From a virus (taxonomy: Duplodnaviria; Caudoviricetes), in IMG/VR virus record IMGVR_UViG_3300047481_000568, positions 245-64,244 of that record: 64,000 nucleotides of DNA. The stretch is one strand, 5' to 3'. The position numbers and the translations under genes were made by a program. Positions 30,203 to 49,103 of this stretch are shown piece by piece. How positions within the stretch are numbered: position 1 is the first letter of the stretch; each line of letters starts with the position of its first letter. The notes under the pieces are model-generated. The model did not search any database and was not told where the DNA came from. It worked only from the letters and a program-made list of their open reading frames with translations.

Positions 30203-30593
30203 GTGTACCTTTCATCAATCTCTTGTCAACAGTGTATTCGGAATAATCGTATTTAGACAACGGTGTATCTACTTTTTTCTTTAAAGCATCCAAGCGCGAC
30301 GCAAACCCCTTCCACGTTGGTACATCTGTTGGCAATGGTGTTTGTTTAATTTCGTGAGCAAACACGTCAATCATTTTATAAATTTGTTCTATTGTCACGC
30401 CTTTTTCTTGTAAGTTCTTAAACACTTTCATCAATGCTATTCCGTTAACCGGAGCATTCAATGTCATGTTTTTACTAATTGTTGCGTCTCTAAAATAAGC
30501 CACCAACCCAGTTGTTGAACTTTTCTTTTTAACTGGTGGCTTACTAACAGGTTCGTCAGCTCCTAATGTTTTACCGCCCCAGTCATCAATCAT
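30195..30593 (-). CDS. hypothetical protein
   Basis: ORF track. Confidence 0.75.
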   Translation of the reverse strand: MIDDWGGKTLGADEPVSKPPVKKKSSTTGLVAYFRDATISKNMTLNAPVNGIALMKVFKNLQEKGVTIEQIYKMIDVFAHEIKQTPLPTDVPTWKGFASRLDALKKKVDTPLSKYDYSEYTVDKRLMKGTHE

Positions 30594-30754
30594 TATCCAT
30601 CCAACTTTTTGGCTTTATCAACGATGTACATGACCTTAATCATTTTTCCGTTTTCTACTGGAGTCAAAGACAGTTTAGGCACCAGAACTTCTTTTCCTTT
30701 ATCGTTTATTTCTTTCTCGCTGTACTCCCACATCCATCGCATGCCTTTACCCAT
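30593..30754 (-). CDS. hypothetical protein (53 aa)
   Basis: Read by hand: MGKGMRWMWEYSEKE...KLDG; GGGAG RBS; TAATG coupling downstream. Confidence 0.6.
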   Translation of the reverse strand: MGKGMRWMWEYSEKEINDKGKEVLVPKLSLTPVENGKMIKVMYIVDKAKKLDG

Positions 30755-31322
30755 TGCTGTGTCTCCCGTCGGTAAGTTTTAACTGTCGGTTCCACCGACT
30801 GTCCGTTGAGTATAGATCCAAGCTCTTAGTACCTTTTCTCTTCTTTTGGTTTTCCTTCTTATAATTATTTTTCTTTCTTATTTGGGTGTCACTGGAGTCA
30901 CTCAATATGAGTGTCTCTGGAGTCACCCCAGGGGTGTCACTGGAGTCACTACTAAACACCCCAGTGTCTCTAGAGTCACCCCCATTAATTAAGGCTTCTG
31001 CGGCTGCCGTATTGTACGTAATTACGTACAAATTTGGCATGTTCTTTCCGTATCTGCCCATCTTTACAATCTTGCGGATAACCCCAATCTCAACCAAACG
31101 ATGCATTGCCCTAATTACAGTCCTACGGTTGTATCCGGTGTCCCTTGCTAGAACGTCATATGTCGTAGACAAAGTTTGGTCATGTGTGTTCATGTAACCA
31201 ATGGCACATGTCAATACATGTAACGCCACTGAATCGCCTTTCATGTACTTAACAACCCAAGTAGGTATGGAAATCCAAGGTCCTCCTAGTTTGGTATTCT
31301 CGCCTGCACTTTTTTGTTTCAT
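30747..31322 (-). CDS. replication initiator (N-terminal HTH, lambda O-like organisation)
   Basis: TYDVLARDTGYNRRTVIRAMHRLVEIGVI...NLY; internal iterons; upstream of loader and helicase. Confidence 0.8.
   Translation of the reverse strand: MKQKSAGENTKLGGPWISIPTWVVKYMKGDSVALHVLTCAIGYMNTHDQTLSTTYDVLARDTGYNRRTVIRAMHRLVEIGVIRKIVKMGRYGKNMPNLYVITYNTAAAEALINGGDSRDTGVFSSDSSDTPGVTPETLILSDSSDTQIRKKNNYKKENQKKRKGTKSLDLYSTDSRWNRQLKLTDGRHSNG
30835..30979. repeat. putative replication origin: four 16-bp iterons plus AT-rich tract
   Basis: GTGTCWCTRGAGTCAC at 30886, 30911, 30934 and 30964; adjacent AT-rich, strand-biased tract 30835-30883. Confidence 0.8.
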
Positions 31323-31326
31323 ATAG

Positions 31327-31356
31327 TTGCATCCTCTCTAGTGATCGTGTTATGCT
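31327..31356 (+). promoter_or_regulatory. plus-strand sigma70-type promoter
   Basis: TTGCAT-N18-TATGCT with extended -10 TG; predicted start about 31363, at the base of the first hairpin. Confidence 0.6.
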
Positions 31357-31362
31357 TTTGGT

Positions 31363-31465
31363 AAGTAAACGGTTCCCTTCTCCCGTTTACTATTGCGAGT
31401 TATTTAGTAACTGCGCAAGGCCCACTTGATAGTGGGGGCGTTGGTTTCCCTTCTTACCAACGTCC
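31363..31465 (+). ncRNA. candidate small RNA, four stem-loops, two UUCCCUUCU loops
   Basis: Hairpins 31364-31391, 31393-31418, 31421-31436, 31436-31465; G-U pairs favour the plus strand; dedicated promoter. Confidence 0.6.
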
Positions 31466-32092
31466 TCACTGTGGGTTTAAAAACTCCAATATTTTGCTCT
31501 TAGAACCGCTAACTGTCTTATGTTGCCCATCTATGGTGTAAACAAGCGTATACAGCTCATTAGAGAGGTTAGAAACCAAATCCTGTGTAGGGGGAAGGGT
31601 ATCCTTTTTTGACGCATCCTGGGGCTTCCTAGAGGCCTCTACGGGCTTATCTTCTACTGGTTCCCCAACTGTTAAAGGCACTAAACCATTACACAGGTCT
31701 AGAGTCTCCATATTCTTTGCATTGGCTGTAAGAACAATCTCCTCTACAAACTGTGTAGGTTGGTCAAAAGTAGCGACTTCATCCCATAACACAAGTACTG
31801 TGGCGTCAGGGTAGCTGTCCAGACTATCCTCAATAAGATTGTCTACTTTTACAACTCGGTTCGCAGCACCCTCAACCAGGTGATGAACTTTGTTATCAGA
31901 GTGGACCACTGTAAATGACGCTGAATGTTCTATGAGCCAATCGTAAACACGACTCTGACCATCTGTGGGTTTGCCTGTCCAAAGAACCACAAACTCTTTT
32001 GTGGTCAATGCCACGTCACTTAAACCAGTTTCAATTACATTTGCGCTTGCGTTACCTGTACCTGCTATCAGGTAGTACCTAGACTTTTGCAT
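31466..32092 (-). CDS. hypothetical protein (Rossmann-like N-terminus)
   Basis: ORF track; GGAGG RBS. Confidence 0.8.
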   Translation of the reverse strand: MQKSRYYLIAGTGNASANVIETGLSDVALTTKEFVVLWTGKPTDGQSRVYDWLIEHSASFTVVHSDNKVHHLVEGAANRVVKVDNLIEDSLDSYPDATVLVLWDEVATFDQPTQFVEEIVLTANAKNMETLDLCNGLVPLTVGEPVEDKPVEASRKPQDASKKDTLPPTQDLVSNLSNELYTLVYTIDGQHKTVSGSKSKILEFLNPQ

Positions 32093-32101
32093 GTTGTCCT
32101 C

Positions 32102-32374
32102 CTACTTTAAAGACTTGTTATGTGCCATATCTCCTAGATAAGTCAGACATCGTAGCACCGTGTGGCAGAAGCCAGCAAGTGTTGCAATGATTAAACCTCC
32201 CAACCAAATGTTGTCTACACCGACAACAAAAGAAGCGCCGTAAGAAACTACGACTCCCGCTAAAACTTTAACCCAAGGCATTGCTTCTTTAGGTAAAAGT
32301 AAATCAATTACTTGCAACAGTTTGTAAACGGCTAGTGCACAAATTATATAGTTCACGTTTTTCCTGGTATCCAA
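32102..32374 (-). CDS. small multi-TM membrane protein
   Basis: Three hydrophobic segments; start uncertain. Confidence 0.7.
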   Translation of the reverse strand: MDTRKNVNYIICALAVYKLLQVIDLLLPKEAMPWVKVLAGVVVSYGASFVVGVDNIWLGGLIIATLAGFCHTVLRCLTYLGDMAHNKSLK

Positions 32375-33993
32375 TCGTAGTTAATAGTTTTGTCTATAGA
32401 TGGATCAAGAAGCATAGTGACTGGTAATAGTTTTGGCAACAAATCAACAATAGTATCTTGAGTTTTTTTTCTATTAGTTGAATAAGTTGAGTACGATGCA
32501 TATTGACTGCCAGACCATTGGTGGTCAGCAAAGTTGTTTTGGTAAACAAATCCACCAAAATCTGAATCACCATTAAAGAACGGGCCGTAGGAGTTAGGTT
32601 CAACCATCCACTTAGTTATTGTTGTTGATGTACCAGCCGCTAAACCAAGAATTAGAACCGGGTACAGCATAGCTGTAGTGTTTTGTGTTGGCGCTAAGAT
32701 TACTTTTCTACCAGATGGACTTAGGTTTGCAGGAATGATTTGATCGCTTTGGTTACTTGTTGACCAGTTAGACCATGATGCCGATGCAGATGCCCATTGA
32801 GCACCCCAAATACTTCCGGCAGAAGCTGTTGTTATTTCAATAGACGACCAGTAATCAGTATTGTCTTTTACTGGAACAGCCACTGTGGACATCAAAGCAA
32901 ACTGTGCGGATGAACTTCCTGAATTGGTAACCGTAATGTAATTACCAGATTTAGTGTAAGCAACAGAAGCCGTTTCTGTTGTTAAATTCCATTTTTTAGT
33001 ACCAGATTCAATTACAAACAACGAGTCCGCTACTAAGTTTGCTTTTTCTGCATGGATATTAAATGTGTAACGAGGACTACTTGTTGACTCAATAACATCA
33101 ACTTCAGAACCAGTTACAGCAATCAAATATTGTTTTGTTGCCTCAAGTGTTCCTTTACGTTGACGATAGTAAGCAATGTCTTTTAAGATCTGCCTAATTC
33201 GTGATGTTCCTAAATCTTGAATAGAAACTTCCAAACCAAACATGGTGGCTAGTTGGTCTATAGATTCGGTTTCTGTTTTTTCTGGGTCATATTGTTGGAC
33301 TACAGAATTAAGTAATGTTCTAATTCGGTCAAACTCAAATCCAAAAATGTCTAAATATCGGTAAAGGTATCCTCGCGATAAACCTTCTGGATCTGTATCG
33401 GTTCCGTTGGTGTCGGCAATGCGATGATGAGATGGTATGCGTTCCCACAAAGCATCGGTTGTGTGGTGATCAAAAGGTACTAACTCTTGTAATGTCGCAA
33501 CTCTTTCGTACCAATTGACGCCTGCTGGACCTGTTCCGTTTTGGTTCCAGTGTAAAAATAAAGAGTAGTAAGCCCACGCCCCCGACGGGACGTTATTGTG
33601 TGTTACTGAATAAGTTGTATCTGCATAATTTTGTTCTTTAAGGATTACACCATCAGCAACTGTTTCAGGAGCACCTGTTCTAGAGTAAACAACAACAACA
33701 CCTTTAATAGAAGTTTCTCCTCCTAATTTTGTTGCAGGGTCTTCAATTAAAAATGATGACCATGTTATATTTACAGACGAATGCGTGACTGCAGTTGCTT
33801 TAAAACTTGCGGCAATGTTCAATTCACCAACTGGTGCAATAAACCCATCTGCCCTCAATGAGCTGTCTGAGTCCAATCTTGTTTGCCCAACTGGGGCGTC
33901 TGTGTCTGTACCACGAACATACGAACCAAACGCGTTGGCGTCAGGACTTGCAATTAAGTCAACGCGACGAATCCTAAAAGATTTATATGCCAT
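32353..33993 (-). CDS. baseplate wedge protein (P2 gpI-like domain)
   Basis: LYRYLDIFGFEFD, LATMFG, YYRQRKGT; follows baseplate J. Confidence 0.8.
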   Translation of the reverse strand: MAYKSFRIRRVDLIASPDANAFGSYVRGTDTDAPVGQTRLDSDSSLRADGFIAPVGELNIAASFKATAVTHSSVNITWSSFLIEDPATKLGGETSIKGVVVVYSRTGAPETVADGVILKEQNYADTTYSVTHNNVPSGAWAYYSLFLHWNQNGTGPAGVNWYERVATLQELVPFDHHTTDALWERIPSHHRIADTNGTDTDPEGLSRGYLYRYLDIFGFEFDRIRTLLNSVVQQYDPEKTETESIDQLATMFGLEVSIQDLGTSRIRQILKDIAYYRQRKGTLEATKQYLIAVTGSEVDVIESTSSPRYTFNIHAEKANLVADSLFVIESGTKKWNLTTETASVAYTKSGNYITVTNSGSSSAQFALMSTVAVPVKDNTDYWSSIEITTASAGSIWGAQWASASASWSNWSTSNQSDQIIPANLSPSGRKVILAPTQNTTAMLYPVLILGLAAGTSTTITKWMVEPNSYGPFFNGDSDFGGFVYQNNFADHQWSGSQYASYSTYSTNRKKTQDTIVDLLPKLLPVTMLLDPSIDKTINYDWIPGKT

Positions 33994-39639: not shown

Positions 39640-42281
39640 TAGATTGTCCTCAACAGTTCTCGTTTAAGATCATTATCCAGTAATCGGGCTATTTCTTCAG
39701 CCATACGTCTTGCGTCTGACGGGTTGTTTCCAGTGGAGGTCACGTATATGTTCGGAGCAATTGTAACACTAGTATTACCTGCAACTTGCACATTGGTAGA
39801 ACCCCGTGTTGGTTCATTAGAAACAGGGTCGCCTACAGCAGCAAACATTCCTGGAAGTTCTCCACCAAAATTCCAAGTGTTTCTTTCTGGAAATATGCCA
39901 ACACCTTCTTTTGTTCCCTTTGCTTCCATTGTTGTACCATCTCCAAGGCTGATAGCCACATGGTGTGCTGGAGCTTCTCCATCTTTTCTAAAAAGTAACG
40001 CTCCTTTTTTCTTTTTAGCATCTTCTGGAGACAGTGCCCCACCAGTTTTTTCAGTGTACTTTAAAAGACCGTCGGCGTTTGTATTTCCAAAACCAGGAGC
40101 TTCGTAACCAGATTGTTTAGCTGCCCAAACAACAAGACCACTGCAATCAAACTTGTCAGGATCTGGATTGGATAAATCTCTAGCTGTGTTAAGTTCATAT
40201 GTATCTCCTTGCGCTTTTAACGCTTGGTTTACAAATGCTTCTGCTTTGTTTGTCGCAACAGTTTCTAGTTTTGATATACCTGGTGCAGTTCCTGTACTAG
40301 GTGTTGGTGCGTTGGTTGCACCCAACATTGATTGTTTTCCAGCAACTCCTGCTCCACCTGCAATACCATCATCAAGCAATGATTTTAAGTTAGTTGTTTG
40401 AATTTGTTGTGCGACACTGGTAGTGCCAGCGCTTTGTACAGCATTTAAACCTGCTTGGTATTCAGCCCTAGTTTTTGGAAGTTCTGCAGGTTGTACGTGC
40501 CATGGTTCGCCATGTGAACCGCCAAAAGATTTTAATCCGTATTTTGCTGCATTCTTTTCTACCCAATCCAAATCTCCGGTTAGGTCGGCAGCAAGACCCA
40601 ATTCGTGCATAGATGTTCCTGGAGGGGCAACTGGTGCTCCACTAACATGTCGGTATCGTTTTCCGTTCCAAGATACATCTCCGTTTTCTGATTCTGTGTA
40701 ACGAGAAAGAAACAAAGCTTTCTGATCTTCTTCTGAACGATGACCGTCTGCCAACCCAACGTTTGGATTGTCTTCAAACATTTTTAACAATCTAGTTTTA
40801 AACGATGAATTTAATGGAGAAAATTCTGGTGAATTAACAAGGTCAGCTAGCGGTATCTGCCCGTTTTTAAAAGGGATATTTACACCTTTTGTTTTGTCCC
40901 CAGTAACGGGGTCTCCAGAAGGTGAAGTTGATAATAAATTGGTGCCTAGCCCAGCAAGAGTTAGGCCAAGGGGAGCACCTCCTCCCAAAGTTCCTACAGT
41001 CATTAATCCGCCTGCTGCAATCATTCCGTAACCAGTAAGTTTTCTAAACATGCTGTTGCGTGAAGAGATGTTGGCGCCAACAATTCCACTTAATCTTTCT
41101 TCTAACAATCCCAACGCTTTAGTAACTTTTTGAGTGTTTTCTTCCATTTGTGCAAGATTATCGGCTTGTCGTTTGTAGTAGTTTTCATCACGACCTTCTC
41201 TAACACGAGCCGTTTCTTCAGCCTGTGTTGCAAAACTTTTTTCAATACCCATAACTTGACGGTCTTGTTCTTTAGACGGATCGTACATTGTTGTTTTACC
41301 AGTTTTTTTCTGATATTGAATATTGGCATTTGCATAATCCAATATTTGGTCAATCATGTCTTCAGGCACACCAGACGCCATCAACATAGCCCTAGTGTTA
41401 GATCCTGCTTGACGAGCACCAGCAAGTCTTCCCTCATTAGTAAGTCCAGTTCTTTGAACAATTTGTTGCATGACTTTGTCCATAGAACGTTGTTGACCAC
41501 CAAGACCGTACATGCCAGTGCCCAACATCATTGTCAGTCTGTTGTTAGCAGCAGGTCCTGCAAGAGTTGCTGCTTGTTGCGCAAGTTGATCTGTTCCAAT
41601 TGAGTAACCAGAAAGTGCTCGTAGCCCAGCAAAACCAGCGGCATTTCCTGAAGCGCTCAAACCTGTCTGTGCTTGCATGGTAAGAAGTGTGCTAATGCCA
41701 CCATAACCAAGGCGTTGCCCAGTCATTTCTTGCCGCATGTTGATGTATTGAGTTTGAGAAATGCCTTGTTGCTGTTGGTAGTAAACACCTAATTTGTCTG
41801 CGGACAATGAACGAGCATAGTTATTGTCCATTCTTTGATTCATTGCATCAATGGTGGTTGAAAGGTATTGCATTCCCCTTGCTGCAAGCATTCCTTTTCC
41901 ACCAATTGCGGGCACACCACCGCCACCGCCAGTAGGTGGTTCTTTGTACATTGCAGGAAAATTGATGTTGTTTGTGATCGTGTTAGATCCCGTGCCACTA
42001 ACACTTACCCCATCAGCACGGTCACCATTAACGGTCATTGGCAATTTAACAGCACCAGCTGCCGCTTTACCACCACTGGAAGTTCCAGTTAACCCGCCTA
42101 AACCGCTAATTTCCCTTAAATAATCTAATGTTTTCTTTAACTCGGTGTTGATAGTACCAAGATTATTTTTTAAGTATGCAAAATCAGCTTTAACAGACTT
42201 GATGCCATTAGCCAACTTGTCCATCTGGTCAACGTCAACTTTAAATTTAGCTCGTAAGTCTCCTAAGTTTTTTTCTGCCAT
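39639..42281 (-). CDS. tape measure protein with M15 peptidase and NlpC/P60 domains
   Basis: G/A/Q-rich helical N-terminal part; R...Q...SMHELGLAAD...EPWH; FDCSGLV...HVAI. Confidence 0.85.
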   Translation of the reverse strand: MAEKNLGDLRAKFKVDVDQMDKLANGIKSVKADFAYLKNNLGTINTELKKTLDYLREISGLGGLTGTSSGGKAAAGAVKLPMTVNGDRADGVSVSGTGSNTITNNINFPAMYKEPPTGGGGGVPAIGGKGMLAARGMQYLSTTIDAMNQRMDNNYARSLSADKLGVYYQQQQGISQTQYINMRQEMTGQRLGYGGISTLLTMQAQTGLSASGNAAGFAGLRALSGYSIGTDQLAQQAATLAGPAANNRLTMMLGTGMYGLGGQQRSMDKVMQQIVQRTGLTNEGRLAGARQAGSNTRAMLMASGVPEDMIDQILDYANANIQYQKKTGKTTMYDPSKEQDRQVMGIEKSFATQAEETARVREGRDENYYKRQADNLAQMEENTQKVTKALGLLEERLSGIVGANISSRNSMFRKLTGYGMIAAGGLMTVGTLGGGAPLGLTLAGLGTNLLSTSPSGDPVTGDKTKGVNIPFKNGQIPLADLVNSPEFSPLNSSFKTRLLKMFEDNPNVGLADGHRSEEDQKALFLSRYTESENGDVSWNGKRYRHVSGAPVAPPGTSMHELGLAADLTGDLDWVEKNAAKYGLKSFGGSHGEPWHVQPAELPKTRAEYQAGLNAVQSAGTTSVAQQIQTTNLKSLLDDGIAGGAGVAGKQSMLGATNAPTPSTGTAPGISKLETVATNKAEAFVNQALKAQGDTYELNTARDLSNPDPDKFDCSGLVVWAAKQSGYEAPGFGNTNADGLLKYTEKTGGALSPEDAKKKKGALLFRKDGEAPAHHVAISLGDGTTMEAKGTKEGVGIFPERNTWNFGGELPGMFAAVGDPVSNEPTRGSTNVQVAGNTSVTIAPNIYVTSTGNNPSDARRMAEEIARLLDNDLKRELLRTI

Positions 42282-42293
42282 GATTACTCCTAT

Positions 42294-42447
42294 TTACGCC
42301 TGTTTACGCCAACGGCTCATTGCCGCCCAATAGGTGCGCTGACGCACCGTCATGTTTTGTATGTCGTTGAGCGAAAAGCCCTTGTAAACAGATGCAATAG
42401 CATCGTAATCCCAATATGTACTTACTAGATTAGCCGAATAAAAGGGA
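42294..42447 (-). CDS. frameshifted tail assembly chaperone extension (GT-like)
   Basis: Alternative frame FYSANLVSTYWDYDAIASVYKGFSLNDIQNMTVRQRTYWAAMSRWRKQA has no suitable start; it overlaps the chaperone end at TCC CTT TTA. Confidence 0.7.
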
Positions 42448-43224
42448 GGCCCAGTTTAGTGCGATTGGAAAAGGTTTTTCGCAATGGGCACAGTGGGCTT
42501 CCACCTCCTTGATTTCTGGGCCTGGTTGTGCTTCAAGTAACTTGTCAATAATTGCGGCACGGTCTTTCATGCCAAGACTTTTTGCCCATTTTTCAACGTC
42601 ATTTGGTTTGTTATCATCATCCCACACAGCACAACGAGAAATAAGGATTGTGTTTTGTTCTGGAATGCTCTTGGCTTTTTTGCCAACAATCTGGCTGTCT
42701 TTTCCTGAGACAAGACGAAACTTTTGTTTTGTCCCATTGCGCAATGTTACCACTATTGGTTCTTGTGGGTTGTGTTTTGGTTTTTTAACCGGAAACCCCG
42801 ACATTTCAATTAACACGTCATTTGATTGTGTACAGTGAGGACATTTTATTTCGTATTCACGATTTTCACCGTAGGTTGCACGGACAGTTGCAAGGAATAA
42901 AGAATCCCTATCGCCTAAAATAAGTTCGTCAATAATGTTTGGATTTTCAGATACCTTGATGTTTCCTACAGTGACAACACTTCGTTTTAAAAGTGCTGCC
43001 ATGTATTGAGCATAAAGCAAATCATCATTTGCGTCTAGTGCTGCCAAAGCTTCTTCGTCTTCACCAGTTAGTTCTTTAACTACAGCCGTAGTTTCCCACT
43101 CTTTAGTAGCTTCATTAAAAACACCACAAACTAATTCTAAAGTGGTATTTGGTGTAGCTACTATTCGTGGAACTGGATCGGCTATAGCCGCTGCAATAGC
43201 TGCAGCATCTTGTTGTGTACCCAT
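42430..43224 (-). CDS. tail assembly chaperone (T4 gp26-like, two zinc ribbons)
   Basis: KELTGEDEE, GDRD.L....R.TYG, CPHC, CAHC; between tube and tape measure. Confidence 0.8.
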   Translation of the reverse strand: MGTQQDAAAIAAAIADPVPRIVATPNTTLELVCGVFNEATKEWETTAVVKELTGEDEEALAALDANDDLLYAQYMAALLKRSVVTVGNIKVSENPNIIDELILGDRDSLFLATVRATYGENREYEIKCPHCTQSNDVLIEMSGFPVKKPKHNPQEPIVVTLRNGTKQKFRLVSGKDSQIVGKKAKSIPEQNTILISRCAVWDDDNKPNDVEKWAKSLGMKDRAAIIDKLLEAQPGPEIKEVEAHCAHCEKPFPIALNWASLLFG

Positions 43225-43256
43225 TGTTTACTCCTATGTTTTAAATATGTTTTTAA

Positions 43257-43886
43257 TTAATTTGCTCCAACGATTTTTGTAATATCCTCATCTGTCCAAG
43301 CTACTACAAAACCTTCGTGATGAATGTTAAGTTGTTGAATCATGATGCCATTGTCACCAGCGTTAAGATCGCTAAGACCATAAGCACCAGGCCAGCAGTT
43401 AAACAACTTAAAAGCTAGTTTGGCTTTTCCTGGGTTAACTGCTTTATTAGCAGTAGAACTGTCGTAAGCGTATTGCACTGGAGATGCAGTATATGGATGA
43501 TCAAATACTTGAACAATAACGTTGCAACGATAGTTAGTTTCATTTCCTTTTGAACCGCCTGTTATTCCAGCTGCACCACCGTCAACCCATGAGTGCATGA
43601 ATTGCTGCCATTTATAGAGCTGTGCTTGCTTTGCAAAAGCTCCACGTGCAAATGAAATTGGCGGGAAGTCTGATTGACCAACCATCTTGTGCGGATGGGT
43701 ATTCATTCCACCTTCACGATAAGCAATCAATTCGTTTTGAACTGAAAGCCCACCCATTTGAGCAAAACCTAATTCCCCAATTCCGTCTACCAAGCTACCA
43801 AGAGACCCTGTCTCATCAATAGGTGTAAACCTAACTATAAATTTAAAATTACGAAGAGGGTCTGTACGTTGTGTATGAACTGTCAT
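43257..43886 (-). CDS. tail tube protein (T4 gp19-like)
   Basis: DPLRNFKF, GF....GL, YREGG, NCWP, SDLNAG. Confidence 0.9.
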   Translation of the reverse strand: MTVHTQRTDPLRNFKFIVRFTPIDETGSLGSLVDGIGELGFAQMGGLSVQNELIAYREGGMNTHPHKMVGQSDFPPISFARGAFAKQAQLYKWQQFMHSWVDGGAAGITGGSKGNETNYRCNVIVQVFDHPYTASPVQYAYDSSTANKAVNPGKAKLAFKLFNCWPGAYGLSDLNAGDNGIMIQQLNIHHEGFVVAWTDEDITKIVGAN

Positions 43887-43894
43887 AGTATCTC

Positions 43895-45439
43895 CTAGAT
43901 AGATGTTGCTGTTGAACCACCAGCAAACTGACTGATGGTAATTACAATAAATTCAGCAGGAGTTTGCAAAGCAACCCCAACTTCAATGTTTACTTGTCCG
44001 TCTTCTACTGTAAGAGCCGTATTGTTTGTTGAGTTACAGACAACGTAAAAAGCCTCGCCAGTATTTATTCCTTTCAAACCTCCGGTGCCCCAAAAGTTAG
44101 TAAGAATTGCCGAAACTTTAACAGTCAAATCTGACCACAAGCGTGCGTCGTTTGGTTCAAACAAAGCAAATGCTGTTGCATCTTTTAGCGTTTGTTTTAG
44201 GAAATTAAGTGAACGGCGAACGGTGATGAACTTATCTGATGTGCCTCGCGCTTGCGTACGAGCACCATTAATAATTACGCCAACTCCAGGAACGACGCTA
44301 AATAGGTTCAACTGTTCTGTTTTATACAAAGAACCTTGTTCTGCTTCAGTGAGAGTTGCAACAAGGCCAAATACGTTGCGCAAATCCAAGCCGTAACCAG
44401 CTGGAGCTTTAGCAACGCCTCGTGCTACCTCTGAGCGAACCATTGCACCAACAACGGCTCCACCTGCAAAGGTATTGCGAATTGCTGCAGCACCGGACTT
44501 TGTTGGGTCGTACATTTTAAGGGCTGGACCATAAACAGCTGCATAGCTAGATTGCGTGTATCCAGCAACTGCTGCTGACAACAAAGATTTGCTTGTTGCG
44601 GTTAGTGGTGTGTCTACTACCAAGAACGAGTTACCACGAGAAATCATTTTGGTAATTCCGTTGTTAACAATTGTAGATGAGGTTTGACCAACTAAGTTGA
44701 AGATTAACGATTGCTGATTGGTGTCATAAGCGTTCAATGCCGTTGCCCAATCGGTTGAGTCAATTGAACCAATGCCATCGCTACCGTTTGCAAAAGTCTT
44801 GGTAACTGTGTATGAAGATGATGTCAATCCAGTAATTGTAAGCTCAGCACCTACTGCAACAGTAGCAACACTTGCTGTCGTTACATAGGAAGAATACAAG
44901 TCAAGAACTGTTGTAATGTATCTGTTGCTTTCAGGGTCAACCGACACTCCAGACCATTCTTCTACTTGAACGCCACTAGATTTTACAGTTACTGTAAACA
45001 AAGTGTTTTTTGTAAATTTTGGAGTTGTTGTAGGTGTGACCAATGTGGTGTCGTCAAAAGTGTAATCAACAGTTAAGTTGTTTCCCCAAACACCAACAGA
45101 TTTGGCTTCAAGTGTCCAAATGTCAGCGGCAGCACCTACAGCTGGTGTTCCTTGAATAGTGCTGGTAGCTTTTACAGCAGAACCGTCTGCTACACGTGTG
45201 ACGTAAGCTGATTGACCACCATTTGCAAAAAAATGGTAAACCGCATAACCAAGGTCGTAAGCATTGTCCAACGCCCCAAACAAACTTGTGTATTGTGCCC
45301 AGCTTGTGATTAACGCTGGTGTAGTTGGTCCGCGTTCAGCCGTACCTACAAAAGCTGCAGCGGTAACGCCTGTATTTGCCTGAATGTTGGTAGTAAACGC
45401 CGCTTCCGAAACGTATACTCCTGGACGCTCATATGCCAT
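43895..45439 (-). CDS. tail sheath protein
   Basis: Y.RPGVYV.E, AAFVG..ERGP, FFANGG, KAPAG, VRR, FEPND..LW, PAEFIVI. Confidence 0.95.
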   Translation of the reverse strand: MAYERPGVYVSEAAFTTNIQANTGVTAAAFVGTAERGPTTPALITSWAQYTSLFGALDNAYDLGYAVYHFFANGGQSAYVTRVADGSAVKATSTIQGTPAVGAAADIWTLEAKSVGVWGNNLTVDYTFDDTTLVTPTTTPKFTKNTLFTVTVKSSGVQVEEWSGVSVDPESNRYITTVLDLYSSYVTTASVATVAVGAELTITGLTSSSYTVTKTFANGSDGIGSIDSTDWATALNAYDTNQQSLIFNLVGQTSSTIVNNGITKMISRGNSFLVVDTPLTATSKSLLSAAVAGYTQSSYAAVYGPALKMYDPTKSGAAAIRNTFAGGAVVGAMVRSEVARGVAKAPAGYGLDLRNVFGLVATLTEAEQGSLYKTEQLNLFSVVPGVGVIINGARTQARGTSDKFITVRRSLNFLKQTLKDATAFALFEPNDARLWSDLTVKVSAILTNFWGTGGLKGINTGEAFYVVCNSTNNTALTVEDGQVNIEVGVALQTPAEFIVITISQFAGGSTATSI

Positions 45440-45474
45440 GATAACTCCTATGTGATTGTGATATGGACGAGATA

Positions 45475-46143
45475 TTACTCATTAAAAACTGTTAGTTGAT
45501 GTTCAATTGTACTATTAATTGTGGACACTGGTTTAACCGTTGTAATAGCGGCGAGGTCATCTGGCGCAATTTCCGATGACATTTTTAAAGTATATACCTT
45601 GCGAAATATACGTTTTCTAAAGCCAGATTCTTGGTCCAAAAGGTCTGCGTTGGTCCAATCCAACAGGTCAAACCTTCTTGCCGTATTATCGGCTTGAATA
45701 GTAATAGAATTGTACCTAAAAGGAACGACTCTTTGCAATAATCTAGACGTTAATTGACGATCATGTAGGGCTGTTCGGCAGTAAGTAGAAACTTGATATA
45801 AAAGGTCTACTGGTATAAACTCTACAGATTGTTTAAATGAGTTTGTTGACCCACCAGTAACGCTGGCGCTAACGCTAGGCCAATAATCAAAATATGCTGG
45901 ATTGTCTGACCACCCACCAGCGTTTCCAGAATAAATAGAAACATCGGAATGTTGTCTGTCTGTTGCGTGCAATACGTCAATAAGTTCAATTGTGATAAAT
46001 GGGTAGTTACGTTCAGTTTCTGATTCTGGGTATCTAAAAAACACGTCTACTTCTCTTAAATTATTACGGTCATCAGATACGGTACAGTTAGAAAAACGCA
46101 ATTTAACAGCTTCGTCCTCGGCTAGTAAAAACCCAGTTTTCAT
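45475..46143 (-). CDS. tail terminator / neck protein
   Basis: YPFITIEL...DLLYQV; immediately before sheath. Confidence 0.65.
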   Translation of the reverse strand: MKTGFLLAEDEAVKLRFSNCTVSDDRNNLREVDVFFRYPESETERNYPFITIELIDVLHATDRQHSDVSIYSGNAGGWSDNPAYFDYWPSVSASVTGGSTNSFKQSVEFIPVDLLYQVSTYCRTALHDRQLTSRLLQRVVPFRYNSITIQADNTARRFDLLDWTNADLLDQESGFRKRIFRKVYTLKMSSEIAPDDLAAITTVKPVSTINSTIEHQLTVFNE

Positions 46144-46541
46144 AGTTTATCGCCTAAGTATTCTTTAATTTTAGTATTAATTTGCTTTCCAAGGGTCTTA
46201 TTAACTGTAAGAACTTCATGTCTCAACAAAGATTTAGCAGGTGGTCCATACTCTAAACTTGCGGCTTTTGCATTTGAGGCGCCCGCTACATTATAGTGAA
46301 ACGACAAGTCTTCAGGGTCCCAATCAATACTGAAATCCTTAGCAATAGATGCCCATTCTTTTTCTTTTTCAGGCAATGATTTTTTAATTCGTTTTTCTTC
46401 TTCAATAATTGCTTCCCCAACAATCCTAGTTAAGTGTTCTTCCATGTTTAAGAAAAGGTCTGCAAGGTAAGTAATTGGAGCGGGACAACCTGCGACAATA
46501 GGGGTAGAGGATGCGTTCGTAGATTTGCCAGTCATTGGCAC
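46140..46541 (-). CDS. neck / tail completion protein
   Basis: LEYG.P..LLR motif; position. Confidence 0.55.
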   Translation of the reverse strand: MPMTGKSTNASSTPIVAGCPAPITYLADLFLNMEEHLTRIVGEAIIEEEKRIKKSLPEKEKEWASIAKDFSIDWDPEDLSFHYNVAGASNAKAASLEYGPPAKSLLRHEVLTVNKTLGKQINTKIKEYLGDKL

Positions 46542-46564
46542 TCCTTTAACCCTAGGCGTTGTAT

Positions 46565-46584
46565 TACTTAGCGCACGCTAAGTA
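46565..46584. promoter_or_regulatory. inverted repeat at the 5' end of a putative late transcript
   Basis: TACTTAGCG-CA-CGCTAAGTA just downstream (minus strand) of TAAACT at 46590-46595. Confidence 0.4.
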
Positions 46585-46595
46585 TTTACAGTTTA

Positions 46596-47126
46596 TCAGG
46601 TAAGGGATGGCAACGTAGAGGGCCATGGAAAATCGTTTACAGTTAATGCTGCAGGACCTGGATCGTTAGGCATTTCATCATTGACATAAACTTCAATTCC
46701 CTCAACAACAACCAATACGTCATCCTTTACACGACCACGAACTCGGTACATAGTAACGCTGTAATACCTAGCATCGTACATAAACATGTCGTTTAGATGT
46801 CGTTGGTATTCGTAAGGTTCGTCAATACCAGCATCACGCATGTCAGCAATAGACATAACGACGTTTACTACCTGCACTGGTTGACGACCTTCTGGGATAG
46901 CCCGTTTTGTGTCTTCAGTTTCAGTAACCATCAGTACTGGAACAATGACCTTGTCTTTGTATTTTTTACCATCTGCACCAGACGGTCCTTCGTCATATAC
47001 ATCGTCATATTCGCTACCCTCAGCTGAAAAGGGAATGAAACTAAACCACGCTATGGTTTCTCCAACTTGTCGGTGGTATTGACGATAATTCTTGCGAATA
47101 TGGGCAAGTTCTCTACGACCATCCAT
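46596..47126 (-). CDS. head-closure / head-to-tail stopper protein
   Basis: DDVYDEG, DMFMYDAR.Y.V; position. Confidence 0.6.
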   Translation of the reverse strand: MDGRRELAHIRKNYRQYHRQVGETIAWFSFIPFSAEGSEYDDVYDEGPSGADGKKYKDKVIVPVLMVTETEDTKRAIPEGRQPVQVVNVVMSIADMRDAGIDEPYEYQRHLNDMFMYDARYYSVTMYRVRGRVKDDVLVVVEGIEVYVNDEMPNDPGPAALTVNDFPWPSTLPSLT

Positions 47127-47129
47127 GGC

Positions 47130-47963
47130 TTATATTCCGTAGATAGCAGACGAGTTTATTGTCGTTCCAGGCTCAATAGTTACAAAAACATCGCTAATTT
47201 GCTTGTCTTCAGGTTCCTCAATGTTGATAACACCGTCTCCAATTTCTGGAAAGAGTCGTTCAATTGGGCCGTACTCTCCAAGTTCCTTGGATTTATAGAT
47301 TGGGACATACCTGTTTGTACTTCTAGATACACGGCGAAGATTCATTATTTCAATTCTTTCAAGACCAATATTTAAAGCCTTGGCTTGTTTCTCGTATGCT
47401 TTTGACCAATAGTCAAGTAGGCTTTGAACCATTCTGAACCGTTGGCTTGCCGGGATATGTACGGACTCTGAGGTAGTAACATCAATGTCTCGGCTGTATT
47501 CAGTAAGCAAACCCCACAGTGCTTCAACAACACAACTCATGCCAATGGTGTCAATAACAATCCCAGACATTTTTTCAAGTGGCAAATCCAAGTTGTAGAC
47601 ATGTTGCTCAATAGCATGGGTTGCGTAAAACTCAAGGTCTGAAGGCAAAACCCATTCATAGTAGTAACCTTCAACCAAGATGTTTGCGCCAGCAGTTGGG
47701 GTTTGATTAAACCGCAAAATGCCATTGCGTGCATCTAGTGAGTAATAAGAACTAGCGGAAGTGCTTGAAGTTATAGTTACTGGGGCGCTGTTTGTGTATG
47801 AAGCAACCCATAAAGAGTCTTTGTCAATATTTGGATTTCCTAATTCGTAAGTTCTACCTACTGCATTAAACGATACTTGAAAAAACTTAGGAAAATCTCT
47901 TAAGAACCCTCTAGCAATTGTTGTAATGGTGTTTACGGAAGCAGGGTCAAATACTGTATGCAT
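47130..47963 (-). CDS. head-to-tail adaptor protein
   Basis: ALW.L..E...DID...E.V.IP.SQRF; position after capsid genes. Confidence 0.65.
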   Translation of the reverse strand: MHTVFDPASVNTITTIARGFLRDFPKFFQVSFNAVGRTYELGNPNIDKDSLWVASYTNSAPVTITSSTSASSYYSLDARNGILRFNQTPTAGANILVEGYYYEWVLPSDLEFYATHAIEQHVYNLDLPLEKMSGIVIDTIGMSCVVEALWGLLTEYSRDIDVTTSESVHIPASQRFRMVQSLLDYWSKAYEKQAKALNIGLERIEIMNLRRVSRSTNRYVPIYKSKELGEYGPIERLFPEIGDGVINIEEPEDKQISDVFVTIEPGTTINSSAIYGI

Positions 47964-47980
47964 GATAACAGTTTACTTTA

Positions 47981-48133
47981 TTATTGATCGCCAGAACCAG
48001 AGCCAGGAACTGTGTCTTGCAACTCTTGGTTCATTGCAGGCTGTTGTTCTCTAAATCGCCCCAAGCTAACGCGGCGAACTCTTGTAATGTCTGCAACAGT
48101 TCCCGTGGGAGTAGGAAGAAGTTCTTCGCTCAC
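47981..48133 (-). CDS. hypothetical protein (50 aa)
   Basis: Read by hand: GTG start, MSEELLPTPTGTVADITRVRR...; GTGA overlap with upstream gene. Confidence 0.6.
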   Translation of the reverse strand: MSEELLPTPTGTVADITRVRRVSLGRFREQQPAMNQELQDTVPGSGSGDQ

Positions 48134-48771
48134 AATCCAACAAGCAAAAATGGATTCAAAGGGACATCAGGAACTACAGTGTACACACCTAAGTTTTGCC
48201 AAGACCCGGATTGTTTTACATATAGAGACGATTGTCCCAATGCTGGTGTAAAACTAGTTCGGATATACAAATCTCCGTCTACGCCAACTGCAGGTGGAAC
48301 TCCAGTTCCGCTTCGTATAATTGTAGAAGTTAGTTTTCGTTTATCTACAACGCTGTTGTTGCCAAAAGTTTCTCCAGACTTTCGGTACAAAGCATAAAGA
48401 ACAATTTGGGTAGAAGCTATTACAGGGAAAATAGGGTTTGTTGCATCTGGAGTACCAACCACAGTATTCAATGAAAATACTCCAGAACTATTTTGGGCAA
48501 CAATTAAATCAAAACGTGGGTCAGCAACAGGGGCTGTAAAGTTTAAAGTAGTTCCGGAAACTTGTCCGTAAACGCCATCAATGATTACTTCACCAGCAGC
48601 AACGATTGCTGATCCGTTGACTGCTGCGTTAAAGGTAGCGGATAGTCCAGAAAGAACCGCATAGCGATTGTTGCCAACAATTTCAAAATCTAATGAATCA
48701 GGTTCTGCTTGGTCTAAACTTTGGATTGATACACCAAATTGATTTGCGTTCGGTACTATAAATCCTGTCAT
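48130..48771 (-). CDS. virion structural / decoration protein
   Basis: Beta-rich; V.AG.V.IDG, PRFDLIV, G.DGDLY; in head module. Confidence 0.6.
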   Translation of the reverse strand: MTGFIVPNANQFGVSIQSLDQAEPDSLDFEIVGNNRYAVLSGLSATFNAAVNGSAIVAAGEVIIDGVYGQVSGTTLNFTAPVADPRFDLIVAQNSSGVFSLNTVVGTPDATNPIFPVIASTQIVLYALYRKSGETFGNNSVVDKRKLTSTIIRSGTGVPPAVGVDGDLYIRTSFTPALGQSSLYVKQSGSWQNLGVYTVVPDVPLNPFLLVGL

Positions 48772-48781
48772 TATTTAAACC

Positions 48782-49033: not shown

Positions 49034-49057
49034 TTTATGGTTCCTTTTTGTGTAGTT

Positions 49058-49088
49058 AAGAATAAAGTGGGGGTATTAACCCCCACTT
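49058..49088 (-). terminator. intrinsic terminator after major capsid gene
   Basis: AAGTGGGGGT-TAAT-ACCCCCACTT stem followed by TATTCTT. Confidence 0.7.
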
Positions 49089-49103
49089 ACATCTTAGAGA
49101 TAA

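What the first reader, a model, noticed from the sequence alone, without database searches (positions are those of the whole stretch)
31327..31465. Lone plus-strand small RNA candidate with twin UUCCCUUCU loops between the structural and replication modules
Seen: the whole 31363-31465 gap is tiled by four hairpins. The first (AGUAAACGG/CCGUUUACU) and last (GGGCGUUGGU/ACCAACGUCC) have unrelated stems but nearly identical 10-nt loops, UUCCCUUCUC and UUCCCUUCUU. G-U pairs in hairpins 2 and 4 favour the plus strand, opposite to every protein gene, and TTGCAT-N18-(TG.)TATGCT places a start at the base of hairpin 1, divergent from the initiator gene. Established: sRNAs with repeated C/U-rich loops (actinobacterial 6C RNA, staphylococcal RsaE and RNAIII) pair with G-rich ribosome-binding sites. 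Inference: an undescribed phage sRNA that targets AGAAGGGAA-type RBSs (I saw no exact match at a phage start, so probably host mRNAs) or sponges a protein. It may also be antisense to read-through into the initiator.
Basis: partly seen in the sequence, partly recalled or inferred. Interest (0 to 1): 0.8.

Follow-up and report, generated by a model that had tools for sequence, protein, structure and literature searches.

The report
Conserved phage small RNA, anti-SD-like loops
Between the tail genes and the replication genes of an uncultured phage lies a gene for a roughly 115-base folded RNA, kept in dozens of related phages, whose exposed loops resemble the part of the ribosome that recognises messenger RNAs, so it probably controls translation.

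Summary
Window 31363-31477 (+) folds into three hairpins, not four.

- **Loops.** The two 10-nt loops differ at one base.
- **Conservation.** A covariance model finds the element in 40 of 86 related loci. It always lies on the strand opposite the genes, just upstream of the replication-initiator gene.
- **Covariation.** 39 of 41 pairs show compensatory changes (0 of 500 shuffles reach this).
- **Strand.** G-U pairs and folding energies favour the plus strand.
- **Promoter and size.** A TGnTAnnnT extended -10 sits 6-9 nt before hairpin 1 in every lineage. The predicted RNA is always 105-117 nt.
- **Loop motif.** Stems differ completely between lineages, but the last loop keeps CC(C)UUCUU. A sister clade carries a loop identical to the 16S rRNA 3' tail.
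- **Known families.** No Rfam family matches, including 6C, RsaE and ctRNAs.

Best reading: a new phage sRNA family, placed like lambda oop, that pairs through anti-Shine-Dalgarno-like loops with purine-rich ribosome-binding sites, as 6C and RsaE do.

Expression, the 3' end, the targets and the host are not shown. The one RNA run available did not cover the element.

The parts
31327..31332 (+). -35-like hexamer TTGCAT. It overlaps the complement of the initiator gene's ribosome-binding site (TCCTCTC at 31332-38).
   Evidence: Read. Invariant in 13 of 13 close variants. TTGnnT-like hexamers stand 17-18 nt before the -10 in the other lineages. It has only 3 of 6 matches to the E. coli consensus and the promoter scan did not call it.
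31348..31356 (+). Extended -10 element TGtTATGCT.
   Evidence: Invariant in 13 of 13 close variants, while the spacer and the bases after it vary. In the other lineages the letters differ but the TGnTAnnnT form is kept: TGgTACTCT, TGcTATTAT, TGcTATCAT, TGtTATAGT, TGcTATATT, TGtTAACAT, TGtTACGCT. TANNNT is the preferred SigA -10 in M. smegmatis (PMC6448022, passages).
31363..31477 (+). Predicted small RNA of about 115 nt, from about 7 nt after the -10 to the foot of hairpin 3.
   Evidence: Fold (-54.0 kcal/mol). Covariance model R1 scores 151.6 bits here; the next best place in the window scores 13.4. The same architecture, 105-117 nt long, is found in 17 of 17 lineage representatives. The ends are inferred, not mapped.
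31364..31391 (+). Hairpin 1: 9-bp stem, 10-nt loop UUCCCUUCUC (31373-82).
   Evidence: Compensatory changes: G-C to A-U in L004 and a stem rewritten at three pairs in L010. In the multi-lineage alignment 9 of 9 pairs show changes on both sides.
31393..31418 (+). Hairpin 2: 10-11 bp with bulged G31413 and a small variable loop.
   Evidence: U-A changes to C-G in L010. 9 of 10 pairs show changes on both sides across lineages.
31419..31477 (+). Hairpin 3: outer stem 31419-25/31471-77, 5' bulge UUGAU 31426-30, inner stem 31431-45/31456-70, loop UUCCCUUCUU 31446-55.
   Evidence: The outer stem covaries in 3 of 7 pairs among close variants and in 7 of 7 across lineages; the inner stem covaries in 14 of 15. 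The loop core CC(C)UUCUU is kept in all lineages.
30747..31322 (-). Context: gene for a putative replication initiator (191 aa, helix-turn-helix). The RNA gene points away from it.
   Evidence: The HTH_36 match is weak: E = 1.9e-4, 21.6 bits, below the cut-off of 25. A DnaC-like loader and a DnaB helicase follow. Four 19-nt direct repeats lie inside the gene at 30884-30980. Synteny is kept in all clades.
31466..32092 (-). Context: last gene of the tail/baseplate module (208 aa, no family match). Its last 12 nt, including the stop codon, are complementary to the 3' arm of hairpin 3.
   Evidence: Homologues sit at the same place in relatives.

Best explanation
Window 31363-31477 (+) is the gene for a small non-coding RNA of about 115 nt in an uncultured myovirus.

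**What it is (inferred from comparison).**
- It is transcribed by host RNA polymerase from an extended -10 promoter, TTGCAT-N18-TGtTATGCT. This promoter lies back to back with the ribosome-binding site of the replication-initiator gene.
- The RNA runs against all the protein genes.
- It folds into three hairpins. Hairpin 1 and the long bulged hairpin 3 display almost the same pyrimidine-rich loop, UUCCCUUCU.
- That loop resembles the 3' tail of 16S rRNA, the anti-Shine-Dalgarno sequence.

**How it most likely works (inferred, not shown).** The loops act as seeds that pair with purine-rich, GAAGGG-type ribosome-binding sites and block translation initiation. The actinobacterial 6C sRNA and staphylococcal RsaE and RNAIII work this way. 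Having two or three near-identical loops gives redundancy or lets the RNA bind more than one site.

**Targets.** They are probably outside the phage, in host mRNAs. In some lineages they also include a phage gene or the neighbouring initiator's own ribosome-binding site.

**Position.** The RNA sits as oop/pO does in phage lambda. It will therefore also be antisense to any late-operon transcript that reads through into the initiator gene.
For: **Structure.**
- z = -4.48 in the window.
- Among 13 close variants, 99.2% of cells are paired and 11 pairs change on both sides; 0 of 500 shuffles reach this.
- Among 18 sequences from about 8 lineages, 94.9% of cells are paired, 39 of 41 pairs change on both sides and the covariation score is 0.657 against 0.194 in shuffles (0 of 500 reach it). 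Slid controls give 41-48% paired.

**Family.** Model R2 finds the element in 40 of 86 related loci at E <= 1e-5. Every hit is on the strand opposite the genes and at the same place. Several hits were not in the training set.

**Strand.**
- In the close set, 56 cells are G-U on the plus strand, which would be A-C on the minus strand. Only 3 go the other way.
- In 17 representatives the plus strand folds better in 13, with 47 G-U pairs against 18.

**Promoter and size.** TGnTAnnnT is kept in form, though not in letters, 6-9 nt before hairpin 1 in all lineages. RNA length is constant at 105-117 nt.

**Composition.** The element is a G+C-rich island: 0.48-0.67 against 0.41-0.49 for the loci.

**Loops.**
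- The stems are rewritten completely between lineages, but the hairpin 3 loop keeps CC(C)UUCUU: UUGCCCUUCUUGA, UUUUCCCUUCUUGA, UGAUUUCCCCUUCUUUGAU, GUUUCCUUCUUUGA.
- One to three loops per RNA are of this kind.
- A sister clade has loops containing ACCUCCUUUCU. These are the last letters of the 16S rRNA tail, GGATCACCTCCTTTCT, as found in a Bacillaceae genome.

**Phage ribosome-binding sites.** The phage's own genes use standard purine-rich sites.

**Possible targets.**
- In relative G004 the only extra AGAAGGGAA lies 5 nt before the ATG of a gene.
- In L219, L193 and L205 the hairpin 3 loop has 7-8 nt of perfect complementarity to the initiator's ribosome-binding site. In L155 it has 11 of 12.

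**Precedent.** The C-rich loops of 6C sRNA bind the G-rich ribosome-binding sites of panD and dnaB without a chaperone (PMC6486639, passages).
Against: - **No expression evidence.** The one metatranscriptome run that was offered holds only 30973-31136.
- **Weak promoter by E. coli rules.** The promoter has 7 of 12 consensus matches and the scan did not call it. The TTG-N-TGnTAnnnT pattern is not enriched in the window: 8 found, 11.3 expected.
- **No terminator.** No lineage has an intrinsic terminator after hairpin 3, so the 3' end is undefined.
- **No target in the window.** Complementarity to the initiator's ribosome-binding site there is only 4 nt perfect, or 6 bp with one G-U. Other phage start regions pair no better than expected for any purine-rich site.
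- **No perfect target in a near-complete relative.** A 99%-complete relative has no 9-nt loop complement outside the element.
- **The G004 site is a single case.**
- **Strand signal is not universal.** In 4 of 17 representatives the minus strand folds better.
- **Alignment bias.** The multi-lineage alignment was fitted to the model's structure, which favours pairing.
- **Host unknown.** The 16S tail was checked only in a Bacillaceae genome.
Confidence: 0.5

Rival explanations
1. Lambda oop/pO-like or plasmid countertranscript-like control in cis. The main job is done by the promoter and by full-length antisense pairing. Transcription from the plus-strand promoter collides with late-operon transcription that reads into the initiator gene and its internal origin. 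The RNA also pairs, by loop-loop kissing, with the complementary hairpins of that read-through transcript and triggers RNase III cleavage. Together these set the level of initiator and of transcription through the origin.
For: - The position matches lambda: a short RNA transcribed away from the initiator gene, overlapping the 3' end of the upstream gene, with iteron-like repeats inside the initiator gene (PMC3985674, abstract and passages).
- No terminator-like site was found in 30500-32500 between the tail gene and the initiator in the window. No sigma-70-like site lies in the gap itself; the five minus-strand sites called all lie inside coding sequence. Sense transcripts probably cross the element.
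- Hairpin 3 is a 22-bp stem with a bulge, as in many antisense RNAs.
- pMV158 RNAII and related countertranscripts control rep genes from the same relative position (search listing and abstract).
Against: - In pure cis-antisense pairs the loops are free to drift, because both partners change together. Here the loop motif is the most conserved part across lineages whose stems share nothing.
- Two or three loops of one RNA carry the same motif.
- L155 has a standard minus-strand terminator between the tail gene and the element, which limits read-through there.
- No ctRNA family of Rfam matches.
- No oop-like terminator is present.
Confidence: 0.2
2. The functional molecule is the minus-strand mRNA leader. 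Its hairpin loops show Shine-Dalgarno-like purine tracts (AAGAAGGGAA). These bind the 16S tail and serve as ribosome standby sites or 5' stabilisers for the replication-module message.
For: - All genes are on the minus strand.
- The minus strand also folds well, z = -4.00, and folds better than the plus strand in 4 of 17 representatives.
- AGAAGGGA can pair over 8 positions, one of them G-U, with the end of the 16S tail found.
- The sister clade's loops are a perfect Shine-Dalgarno complement on that strand.
Against: - The G-U asymmetry favours the plus strand: 56 cells against 3 in the close set, and 47 against 18 across lineages.
- The plus-strand promoter form and its fixed distance to hairpin 1 are conserved.
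- No promoter-like site lies in the gap or at the 3' end of the upstream gene. The nearest minus-strand sites called are inside coding sequence: 31040-31011 in the initiator gene and 32439-32411 about a kilobase upstream.
- In the sister clades a divergent operon shows that plus-strand transcription starts in this gap.
Confidence: 0.1
3. Decoy or sponge. The pyrimidine loops imitate the 16S rRNA 3' tail. They soak up a protein or nuclease that recognises it, or an RNA-binding protein that prefers C/U-rich loops, rather than pairing with mRNAs.
For: - One RNA carries several near-identical loops.
- The sister clade carries a literal copy of the 16S tail.
- The loops are conserved independently of the stems.
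- No perfect RNA target exists in a 99%-complete relative.
- Phage RNA mimics that defeat host systems are known (search listing).
Against: - No candidate partner protein was identified.
- Loop letters vary between lineages (CCCUUCUU, CCCCUUCUUU, CCUUCCUUCUU, UCUCUUCUU) more than a tight protein site usually allows.
- The minus-strand GGA-in-loop reading, a Csr-type sponge, fails: GGA is absent from the hairpin 3 loops of L153 and L155.
Confidence: 0.1
4. A DNA-level or priming element. Either single-stranded DNA hairpins or repeated sites of the replication origin, or a transcript that primes replication, as proposed for the RNA-based origins of some actinobacteriophages.
For: - It is next to the replication module.
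- G-T wobble is also tolerated in DNA hairpins.
- Precedent: a transcribed non-coding region just after the tail genes is necessary and sufficient for replication of many Cluster A mycobacteriophage prophages (PMC7157519, abstract and sections 7 and 15).
Against: - A better origin candidate exists: four 19-nt direct repeats inside the initiator gene at 30884-30980.
- The phage encodes its own initiator, loader and helicase.
- Spacing of the two loop motifs varies from 67 to 73 nt between lineages. Compensatory stem changes are not expected for double-stranded protein sites.
- The anti-Shine-Dalgarno-like loop motif has no rationale in an origin.
- The promoter form is conserved.
Confidence: 0.07

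Closest known systems
6C sRNA (B11) of Actinobacteria
   Same: - A small, stable RNA of about 100 nt with three loops, two of them C-rich.
- The loops pair with single-stranded G-rich ribosome-binding sites, including that of the replicative helicase dnaB, without a chaperone (PMC6486639, passages).
- The phage's capsid and helicase are closest to Streptomyces phages, so the host may be an actinobacterium.
   Different: - No match to the Rfam 6C model, even at E <= 10 in the window or E <= 1 in 8 relatives' loci.
- The loops are mixed C/U (CCCUUCU) rather than runs of C.
- It is phage-encoded and tied to the initiator gene.
- Its last hairpin is a long bulged stem.
RsaE/RoxS and RNAIII of Firmicutes (features recalled; RNAIII is also mentioned in PMC6486639)
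   Same: Repeated C-rich motifs in loops pair with G-rich Shine-Dalgarno regions, independently of Hfq.
   Different: No Rfam match. Different fold, size and genomic setting.
Phage lambda oop RNA and its promoter pO
   Same: - A short RNA transcribed opposite to the main transcript, from a promoter next to the initiator gene that contains the iteron origin.
- It is antisense to the 3' end of the upstream gene.
- In lambda, pO dampens transcription into the origin (PMC3985674, abstract and passages).
   Different: - No intrinsic terminator here.
- Only 12 nt of overlap with the upstream gene within the folded RNA.
- Three hairpins with conserved pyrimidine loops.
- Found in a lytic-looking myovirus; no lysogeny gene was seen among the proteins scanned.
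Plasmid countertranscripts that control rep genes (CopA of R1, recalled; RNAII of pMV158, search listing and abstract)
   Same: A small, highly folded RNA made from the strand opposite the initiator's message, close to its ribosome-binding site. Its long stems carry bulges.
   Different: - Whether the initiator message includes the complementary leader is not known.
- The loops are deeply conserved, not specificity-determining and variable.
- No Rfam ctRNA family matches.
RNA-based replication origins of Cluster A mycobacteriophage prophages
   Same: A transcribed non-coding region placed directly after the tail genes in actinobacteriophages (PMC7157519).
   Different: Those phages lack an initiator protein. 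This phage has an initiator with internal repeats, a loader and a helicase. No sequence or structure comparison with them was possible here.

Membership tests
6C RNA (Rfam RF01066) | Matches the family's covariance model at its gathering score | tested here: not met
   There was no 6C match in window 30500-32500 at E <= 10. There was none in 8 relatives' loci (56 kb) at E <= 1.
6C RNA (Rfam RF01066) | Stem-loops whose loops carry conserved cytosine runs (six conserved C) | tested here: inconclusive
   The window loops have CCC plus single Cs. Other lineages have CCCC or CCCCC in one to three loops. The theme is similar but the pattern is not the same.
6C RNA (Rfam RF01066) | Loops pair with G-rich ribosome-binding sites of mRNAs | not testable with these tools
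   The host is unknown. The only phage-internal perfect site is in relative G004.
RsaE/RoxS and other Rfam sRNA families | Match to any curated covariance model | tested here: not met
   The best overlapping match is folP RNA at 15.9 bits against a gathering score of 99, E = 5.3. Nothing overlaps the element.
Lambda oop-type antisense RNA | Promoter beside the initiator gene, firing away from it, with the RNA complementary to the 3' end of the upstream gene | tested here: met
   This holds at sequence level only. The promoter is at 31327-56 and the RNA at 31363-77, overlapping the stop codon and the last 12 nt of gene 31466-32092.
Lambda oop-type antisense RNA | Ends at an intrinsic terminator | tested here: not met
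   There is no plus-strand terminator-like site in 30500-32500. No lineage has a U-tract after hairpin 3.
Lambda oop-type antisense RNA | RNase III-dependent cleavage of the sense transcript | not testable with these tools
   This needs an experiment.
Plasmid ctRNA (countertranscript) families | Lies antisense to the leader of the rep mRNA | tested here: inconclusive
   The scan called no promoter-like site in the gap. The five minus-strand sites it called in 30500-32500 all lie inside coding sequence. A leader made by read-through is therefore likely, but the 5' end of the message is unknown.
Plasmid ctRNA (countertranscript) families | Match to Rfam ctRNA models | tested here: not met
   No match.
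Csr/Rsm-type protein sponge (read on the minus strand) | GGA motif in every hairpin loop | tested here: not met
   GGA is present in the window's minus-strand loops. It is absent from the hairpin 3 loops of L153 (AGGGU) and L155 (AGGGC).
Intrinsic terminator of the late operon | G+C-rich hairpin followed by a U-tract on the coding strand | tested here: not met
   The scan finds none at the element on either strand.

The most novel reading that the evidence does not exclude
The RNA is a phage-made imitation of the 3' tail of 16S rRNA. By offering one to three free anti-Shine-Dalgarno-like loops per molecule, it does one of two things:
- it competes with ribosomes for Shine-Dalgarno-led host messages, which would favour phage messages that start differently; or
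- it acts as a decoy for host factors that attack or bind the ribosome's anti-Shine-Dalgarno tail.

Either way it would be host-translation takeover or defence evasion by rRNA mimicry. The sister clade, whose loop copies the 16S tail letter for letter, would be the clearest form of this.
Probability: 0.2. Interest if true: 0.85.

Novelty: new variant of a known kind. Interest (0 to 1): 0.62.

Why it matters
Few phage-encoded regulatory RNAs are known outside model coliphages and prophages of pathogens. None that I could find in the paper searches is described for this group of uncultured, probably actinobacterial, aquatic myoviruses.

This element is an RNA family supported by covariation and found in 40 loci. 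It has a fixed place beside the replication initiator and a loop motif that looks like the ribosome's mRNA-recognition sequence.

If it pairs with ribosome-binding sites, it would show phages copying the logic of the 6C and RsaE class of regulators to reprogramme translation. If it mimics the 16S tail as a decoy, that would be a new kind of takeover or counter-defence.

It also gives a ready covariance model for annotating these phages, and a lambda-oop-like layout to test in a very different phage.

Tried and rejected
- **Close DNA relatives among cultured phages.** None were found (blastn). No cultured phage has a homologue of the initiator (tblastn). Streptomyces phage BRock, the nearest cultured relative by capsid (59%), has only a perfect palindromic hairpin in the matching gap and no element.
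- **Expression.** One metatranscriptome run (X1, contigs) was offered. When laid on 30800-32000 it covers only 30973-31136, inside the initiator gene. It says nothing about the element.
- **Host.** The scan of bacterial genomes with the initiator alignment returned only a helix-turn-helix match in a Niallia genome. No tRNA gene is in the window. The host stays inferred from protein similarity to Streptomyces phages and from leaderless-looking gene starts in sister clades.
- **Second copies in the window.** None were found (R1, filters off).
- **Twin-loop pattern in viral contigs.** Only those of this phage family have the loops in hairpins.
- **The initiator's own ribosome-binding site as the general target.** Perfect complementarity ranges from 3 to 8 nt and is only 4 nt in the window. 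I rejected it as a general rule and kept it as a possibility in some lineages.
- **Ranking the window's 104 start regions by duplex energy with the loops.** The probes included closing stem bases, so the energies are inflated, and no start region stands out convincingly. The best is 25031-24606, GGAGAAGG. I did not use this as evidence.
- **Promoter enrichment.** The promoter-form regular expression is not enriched in the window: 8 found against 11.3 in shuffles.
- **Sequence conservation.** The element is not more conserved in sequence than the flanking genes. In L010 it is 77% identical, against 84% and 81% for the genes. Conservation lies in the pairing.
- **Sister clades.** The L222-L229 loci have a hairpin whose loop copies the 16S tail, inside a larger fold and upstream of a divergent operon. 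The L166-L170, L230, L231 and L238 loci have no such loop. R2 detects neither group, and neither is counted as a member.
- **L181.** It shows a perfect 29-bp palindrome through the hairpin 3 loop at a contig end. I treat this as an assembly artefact.
- **Closed or unused tools.** Supplementary files of papers were not consulted; Supplementary Figures S7 and S8 of PMC6486639, on the C-rich loops of other sRNAs and the dnaB leaders, may bear on the 6C comparison.
Full report
**Setting.** The window is almost the whole of a 64,244-base virus record judged 68% complete. All long reading frames lie on the minus strand.

The genes identify a myovirus: terminase, portal, major head protein, tail sheath, and baseplate J and P2-I-like proteins. 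After the gap at 31323-31465 comes a replication module. It holds a 191-aa helix-turn-helix protein (a weak HTH_36 match, below the cut-off), a DnaC/IstB-like loader, a DnaB helicase, a second helicase and a family A DNA polymerase.

The head protein is 59-60% identical to those of Streptomyces phages of the BRock group, and the helicase 32%. The window is about 41% G+C. The host is not known. An actinobacterium with low G+C is my inference.

**The observation.** The plus strand of 31323-31470 folds at -48.5 kcal/mol (z = -4.48; 0 of 200 shuffles as good). The minus strand folds at -44.0 (z = -4.00).

- Hairpin 1 is 31364-72/31383-91.
- Hairpin 2 is 31393-31403/31407-18, with G31413 bulged.
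- The apical part of the last hairpin is as stated.
- The two 10-nt loops are UUCCCUUCUC and UUCCCUUCUU.
- AGAAGGGAA occurs nowhere else in the window. Two occurrences are not in themselves unusual, since 12 of 100 shuffles have as many.

**Relatives and the corrected fold.** Searches with the initiator protein and with loop patterns gave 13 distinct close variants from viral and metagenome contigs.

- AGUGGG is part of a 15-bp inner stem, 31431-45/31456-70.
- CCCAC (31421-25) pairs with GUGGG (31471-75), beyond the stated end.
- That pairing covaries: CCUAC/GUAGG in three variants and GUUCAC/GUGAAC in L010.

The element is therefore three hairpins, 31363-31477. The third is a 22-bp stem with a 5-nt bulge (UUGAU). 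Its 3' arm covers the stop codon and the last 12 nt of the tail-module gene 31466-32092.

On this structure, 99.2% of cells are paired and 11 pairs change on both sides. No shuffle out of 500 reaches this, and sliding the partners drops pairing to 37-52%.

**Which strand.** In the close set, 468 cells are Watson-Crick on both strands. Another 56 are G-U on the plus strand, and so A-C mismatches on the minus strand. Only 3 go the other way. About five independent substitutions create plus-strand G-U, and two create A-C. Four further G-U pairs are fixed.

Across 17 representatives of about eight lineages, the plus strand folds better in 13, with 47 G-U pairs against 18. This favours the plus strand but not overwhelmingly. 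In four representatives the minus strand folds better.

**A wider family.**
- An alignment of initiator homologues and one of the baseplate protein two genes upstream brought in 29 and 80 loci.
- Gene order is kept throughout: baseplate protein, 90-aa gene, 208-aa gene, gap, initiator, 132-aa gene, loader.
These lie at the same place and on the opposite strand, at E = 0.002-0.3.
- In those lineages the stems share no sequence with the window and are G+C-rich. The element is 0.48-0.67 G+C, against 0.41-0.49 for the loci.
- An 18-sequence alignment across lineages gives 94.9% paired cells. Changes on both sides occur at 39 of 41 pairs, and the covariation score is 0.657 against 0.194 in shuffles (0 of 500 reach it). 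Slid controls give 41-48% paired. This alignment was fitted to the model, which biases it towards pairing.
- A second model, R2, finds 40 of 86 loci at E <= 1e-5, all on the strand opposite the genes at the syntenic place. The hits include members that were not used to build it.
- Of the 48 loci that contain an initiator homologue, 38 have the element. Seven have a related but larger fold, and three have neither.

**Promoter and size.** The window's TTGCAT-N18-TGtTATGCT is invariant in the close set, while the spacer and the bases after the -10 vary. Other lineages have different letters but the same form. A TTGnnT-like hexamer, 17-18 nt and TGnTAnnnT end 6-9 nt before hairpin 1.

From that point to the foot of hairpin 3, the predicted RNA is 105-117 nt in 17 of 17 representatives, always with three hairpins. 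TANNNT is the preferred -10 of the housekeeping sigma factor in M. smegmatis (PMC6448022, passages).

Evidence against:
- The E. coli-type scan does not call this promoter.
- The form is not enriched in the window.
- No lineage has a U-tract after hairpin 3.

The 3' end must therefore come from processing back to the stable stem, from factor-dependent termination, or the RNA runs on as an antisense transcript.

**The loops.** The loop of hairpin 3 keeps its letters where everything else changes:
- window: UUCCCUUCUU
- L153: UACCCUUCUUU
- L155: UUGCCCUUCUUGA
- L157: UUUUCCCUUCUUGA
- L160 and L162: UUUUCCUUCCUUCUUGA
- L204 clade: UGAUUUCCCCUUCUUUGAU
- L201, L202 and L219: GUUUCCUUCUUUGA
- L216: UUUUUCUCUUCUUUG

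One or two further loops of the same kind occur in hairpin 1 or 2, depending on the lineage (window UUCCCUUCUC, L204 UUCCCCUU, L194 UCCCCCUUC and UCCCCCUUUC).

In the L222-L229 clade a hairpin in the same gap has loops such as UUACCUCCUUUCUA. These contain the last eleven letters of GGATCACCTCCTTTCT. That pattern is present 17 times in a Bacillaceae genome and lies at the 3' end of its 16S rRNA. The window's loop differs from that tail at two of nine positions.

The phage's own genes use ordinary purine-rich ribosome-binding sites such as UAGGAG, AAGGAG and GAGGAGG. The loops are therefore anti-Shine-Dalgarno-like.

**What it probably does.** Deep conservation of a loop motif, repeated within one RNA, over stems that are free to change, points to a seed that meets an outside partner. 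It does not point to a purely cis-antisense RNA, whose loops change together with their target.

The best-documented RNAs of this design pair through C-rich loops with G-rich ribosome-binding sites. The 6C sRNA does so at panD and dnaB without a chaperone (PMC6486639, passages). I therefore take translational repression by loop-to-site pairing as the most likely mechanism (about 0.5).

Targets are open.
- The window has no other perfect loop complement. Four of five close relatives have none, and a 99%-complete relative of another lineage has none either.
- In relative G004 the one extra AGAAGGGAA lies 5 nt before the ATG of a gene with no homologue in the window. This is a single case.
- Complementarity to the neighbouring initiator's site is 7-8 nt perfect in three lineages and 11 of 12 in L155. 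It is only 4 nt in the window.

**Known relatives.** No Rfam family matches, including 6C, RsaE and the plasmid ctRNAs.

By position, the closest known case is lambda's oop RNA and promoter pO. That is a short RNA made against the main transcript, beside an initiator gene that holds the iteron origin. It is antisense to the end of the upstream gene, and pO tempers transcription into the origin (PMC3985674, abstract and passages).

The window fits this layout. Four 19-nt direct repeats lie inside the initiator gene at 30884-30980. The scan calls no promoter-like or terminator-like site in the gap itself, on either strand. The sites it does call in 30500-32500 lie inside the flanking genes.

An oop-like or countertranscript-like role is thus the main rival (0.2), and it may coexist with trans action. 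The minus-strand reading (Shine-Dalgarno-like loops in the leader), a decoy role, and a DNA or priming role are less likely, for the reasons given under the rivals. The RNA-based origins of some actinobacteriophages are a precedent for the last (PMC7157519).

**Verdict.** One hairpin is re-drawn and the 3' boundary moves to 31477. The interpretation as an undescribed plus-strand phage sRNA is well supported by comparison. Its function is inferred.

It is not a member of any curated family. It works, I think, like the C-rich-loop regulators, from a lambda-oop-like position.

Paper searches found no description of such an RNA in phages. These searches cover open-access text only.

Noticed in passing
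window 30884-30980 (inside the initiator gene 30747-31322): Four direct repeats of 19 nt (GGGTGTCACTGGAGTCACT and variants, spacing 23-30 nt). They encode the repeated S-D-T motif of the protein's middle part. A 10+10 palindrome lies at 31012-31031. Together they look like an iteron origin inside the initiator gene, as in lambda gene O.
   Followed up: partly
window 31181-31224: Two 18-nt direct repeats (CATGTGTGTTCATGTAAC / CATGTCAATACATGTAAC), 26 nt apart, near the 5' end of the initiator gene. Their meaning is unknown.
   Followed up: no
L222-L229 (e.g. L223 6475-6900, strand opposite the initiator): In a sister clade the gap holds a larger fold of about 130-150 nt. Its apical hairpin loop contains the 16S rRNA 3' tail letter for letter, and its long outer stem pairs a GGGGGAGGGC tract with GCCCUCCC. 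The family model R2 does not detect it.
   Followed up: partly
L166 1723-2850 and L223 6206-6645 (strand opposite the initiator): The sister clades carry a divergent operon between the tail gene and the initiator. It encodes small lysine-rich proteins (55-89 aa), and in L166 a Dps/ferritin-like protein of 151 aa. The first gene has a TAnnnT hexamer 6 nt before its ATG and no ribosome-binding site, so it looks leaderless.
   Followed up: no
G004:C1:12300-12700 (locus L253), minus strand: In the relative of the L153 lineage, AGAAGGGAA sits 5 nt before the ATG of a gene (MNTFITKKQTDF...). That gene overlaps the stop of a 51-aa cysteine-rich gene. Neither has a homologue in the window.
   Followed up: partly
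window, start regions of the structural genes 42281-51029: Six structural genes (starts at 51029, 50189, 45439, 43886, 43224 and 42281) share nearly the same ribosome-binding site, (A/U)UAGGAG followed by 6-8 nt and ATG. The sites of the replication and small early-looking genes are more varied.
   Followed up: no
L155 about 2800-2835 (gene strand): This lineage has a standard terminator (GGCCCTT GCA AAGGGCC followed by TTATTT) on the coding strand, between the tail gene and the element. The window clade has none.
   Followed up: no
L181 6022-6087: The contig ends in a perfect palindrome centred on the hairpin 3 loop. This is most likely a fold-back assembly artefact at the hairpin.
   Followed up: no
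L254 4855-4901 (Streptomyces phage BRock, gap between gp125 and gp124): A perfect 15-bp A+T-rich palindromic hairpin lies in the gap after the large tail genes. No pyrimidine-loop RNA is present.
   Followed up: partly
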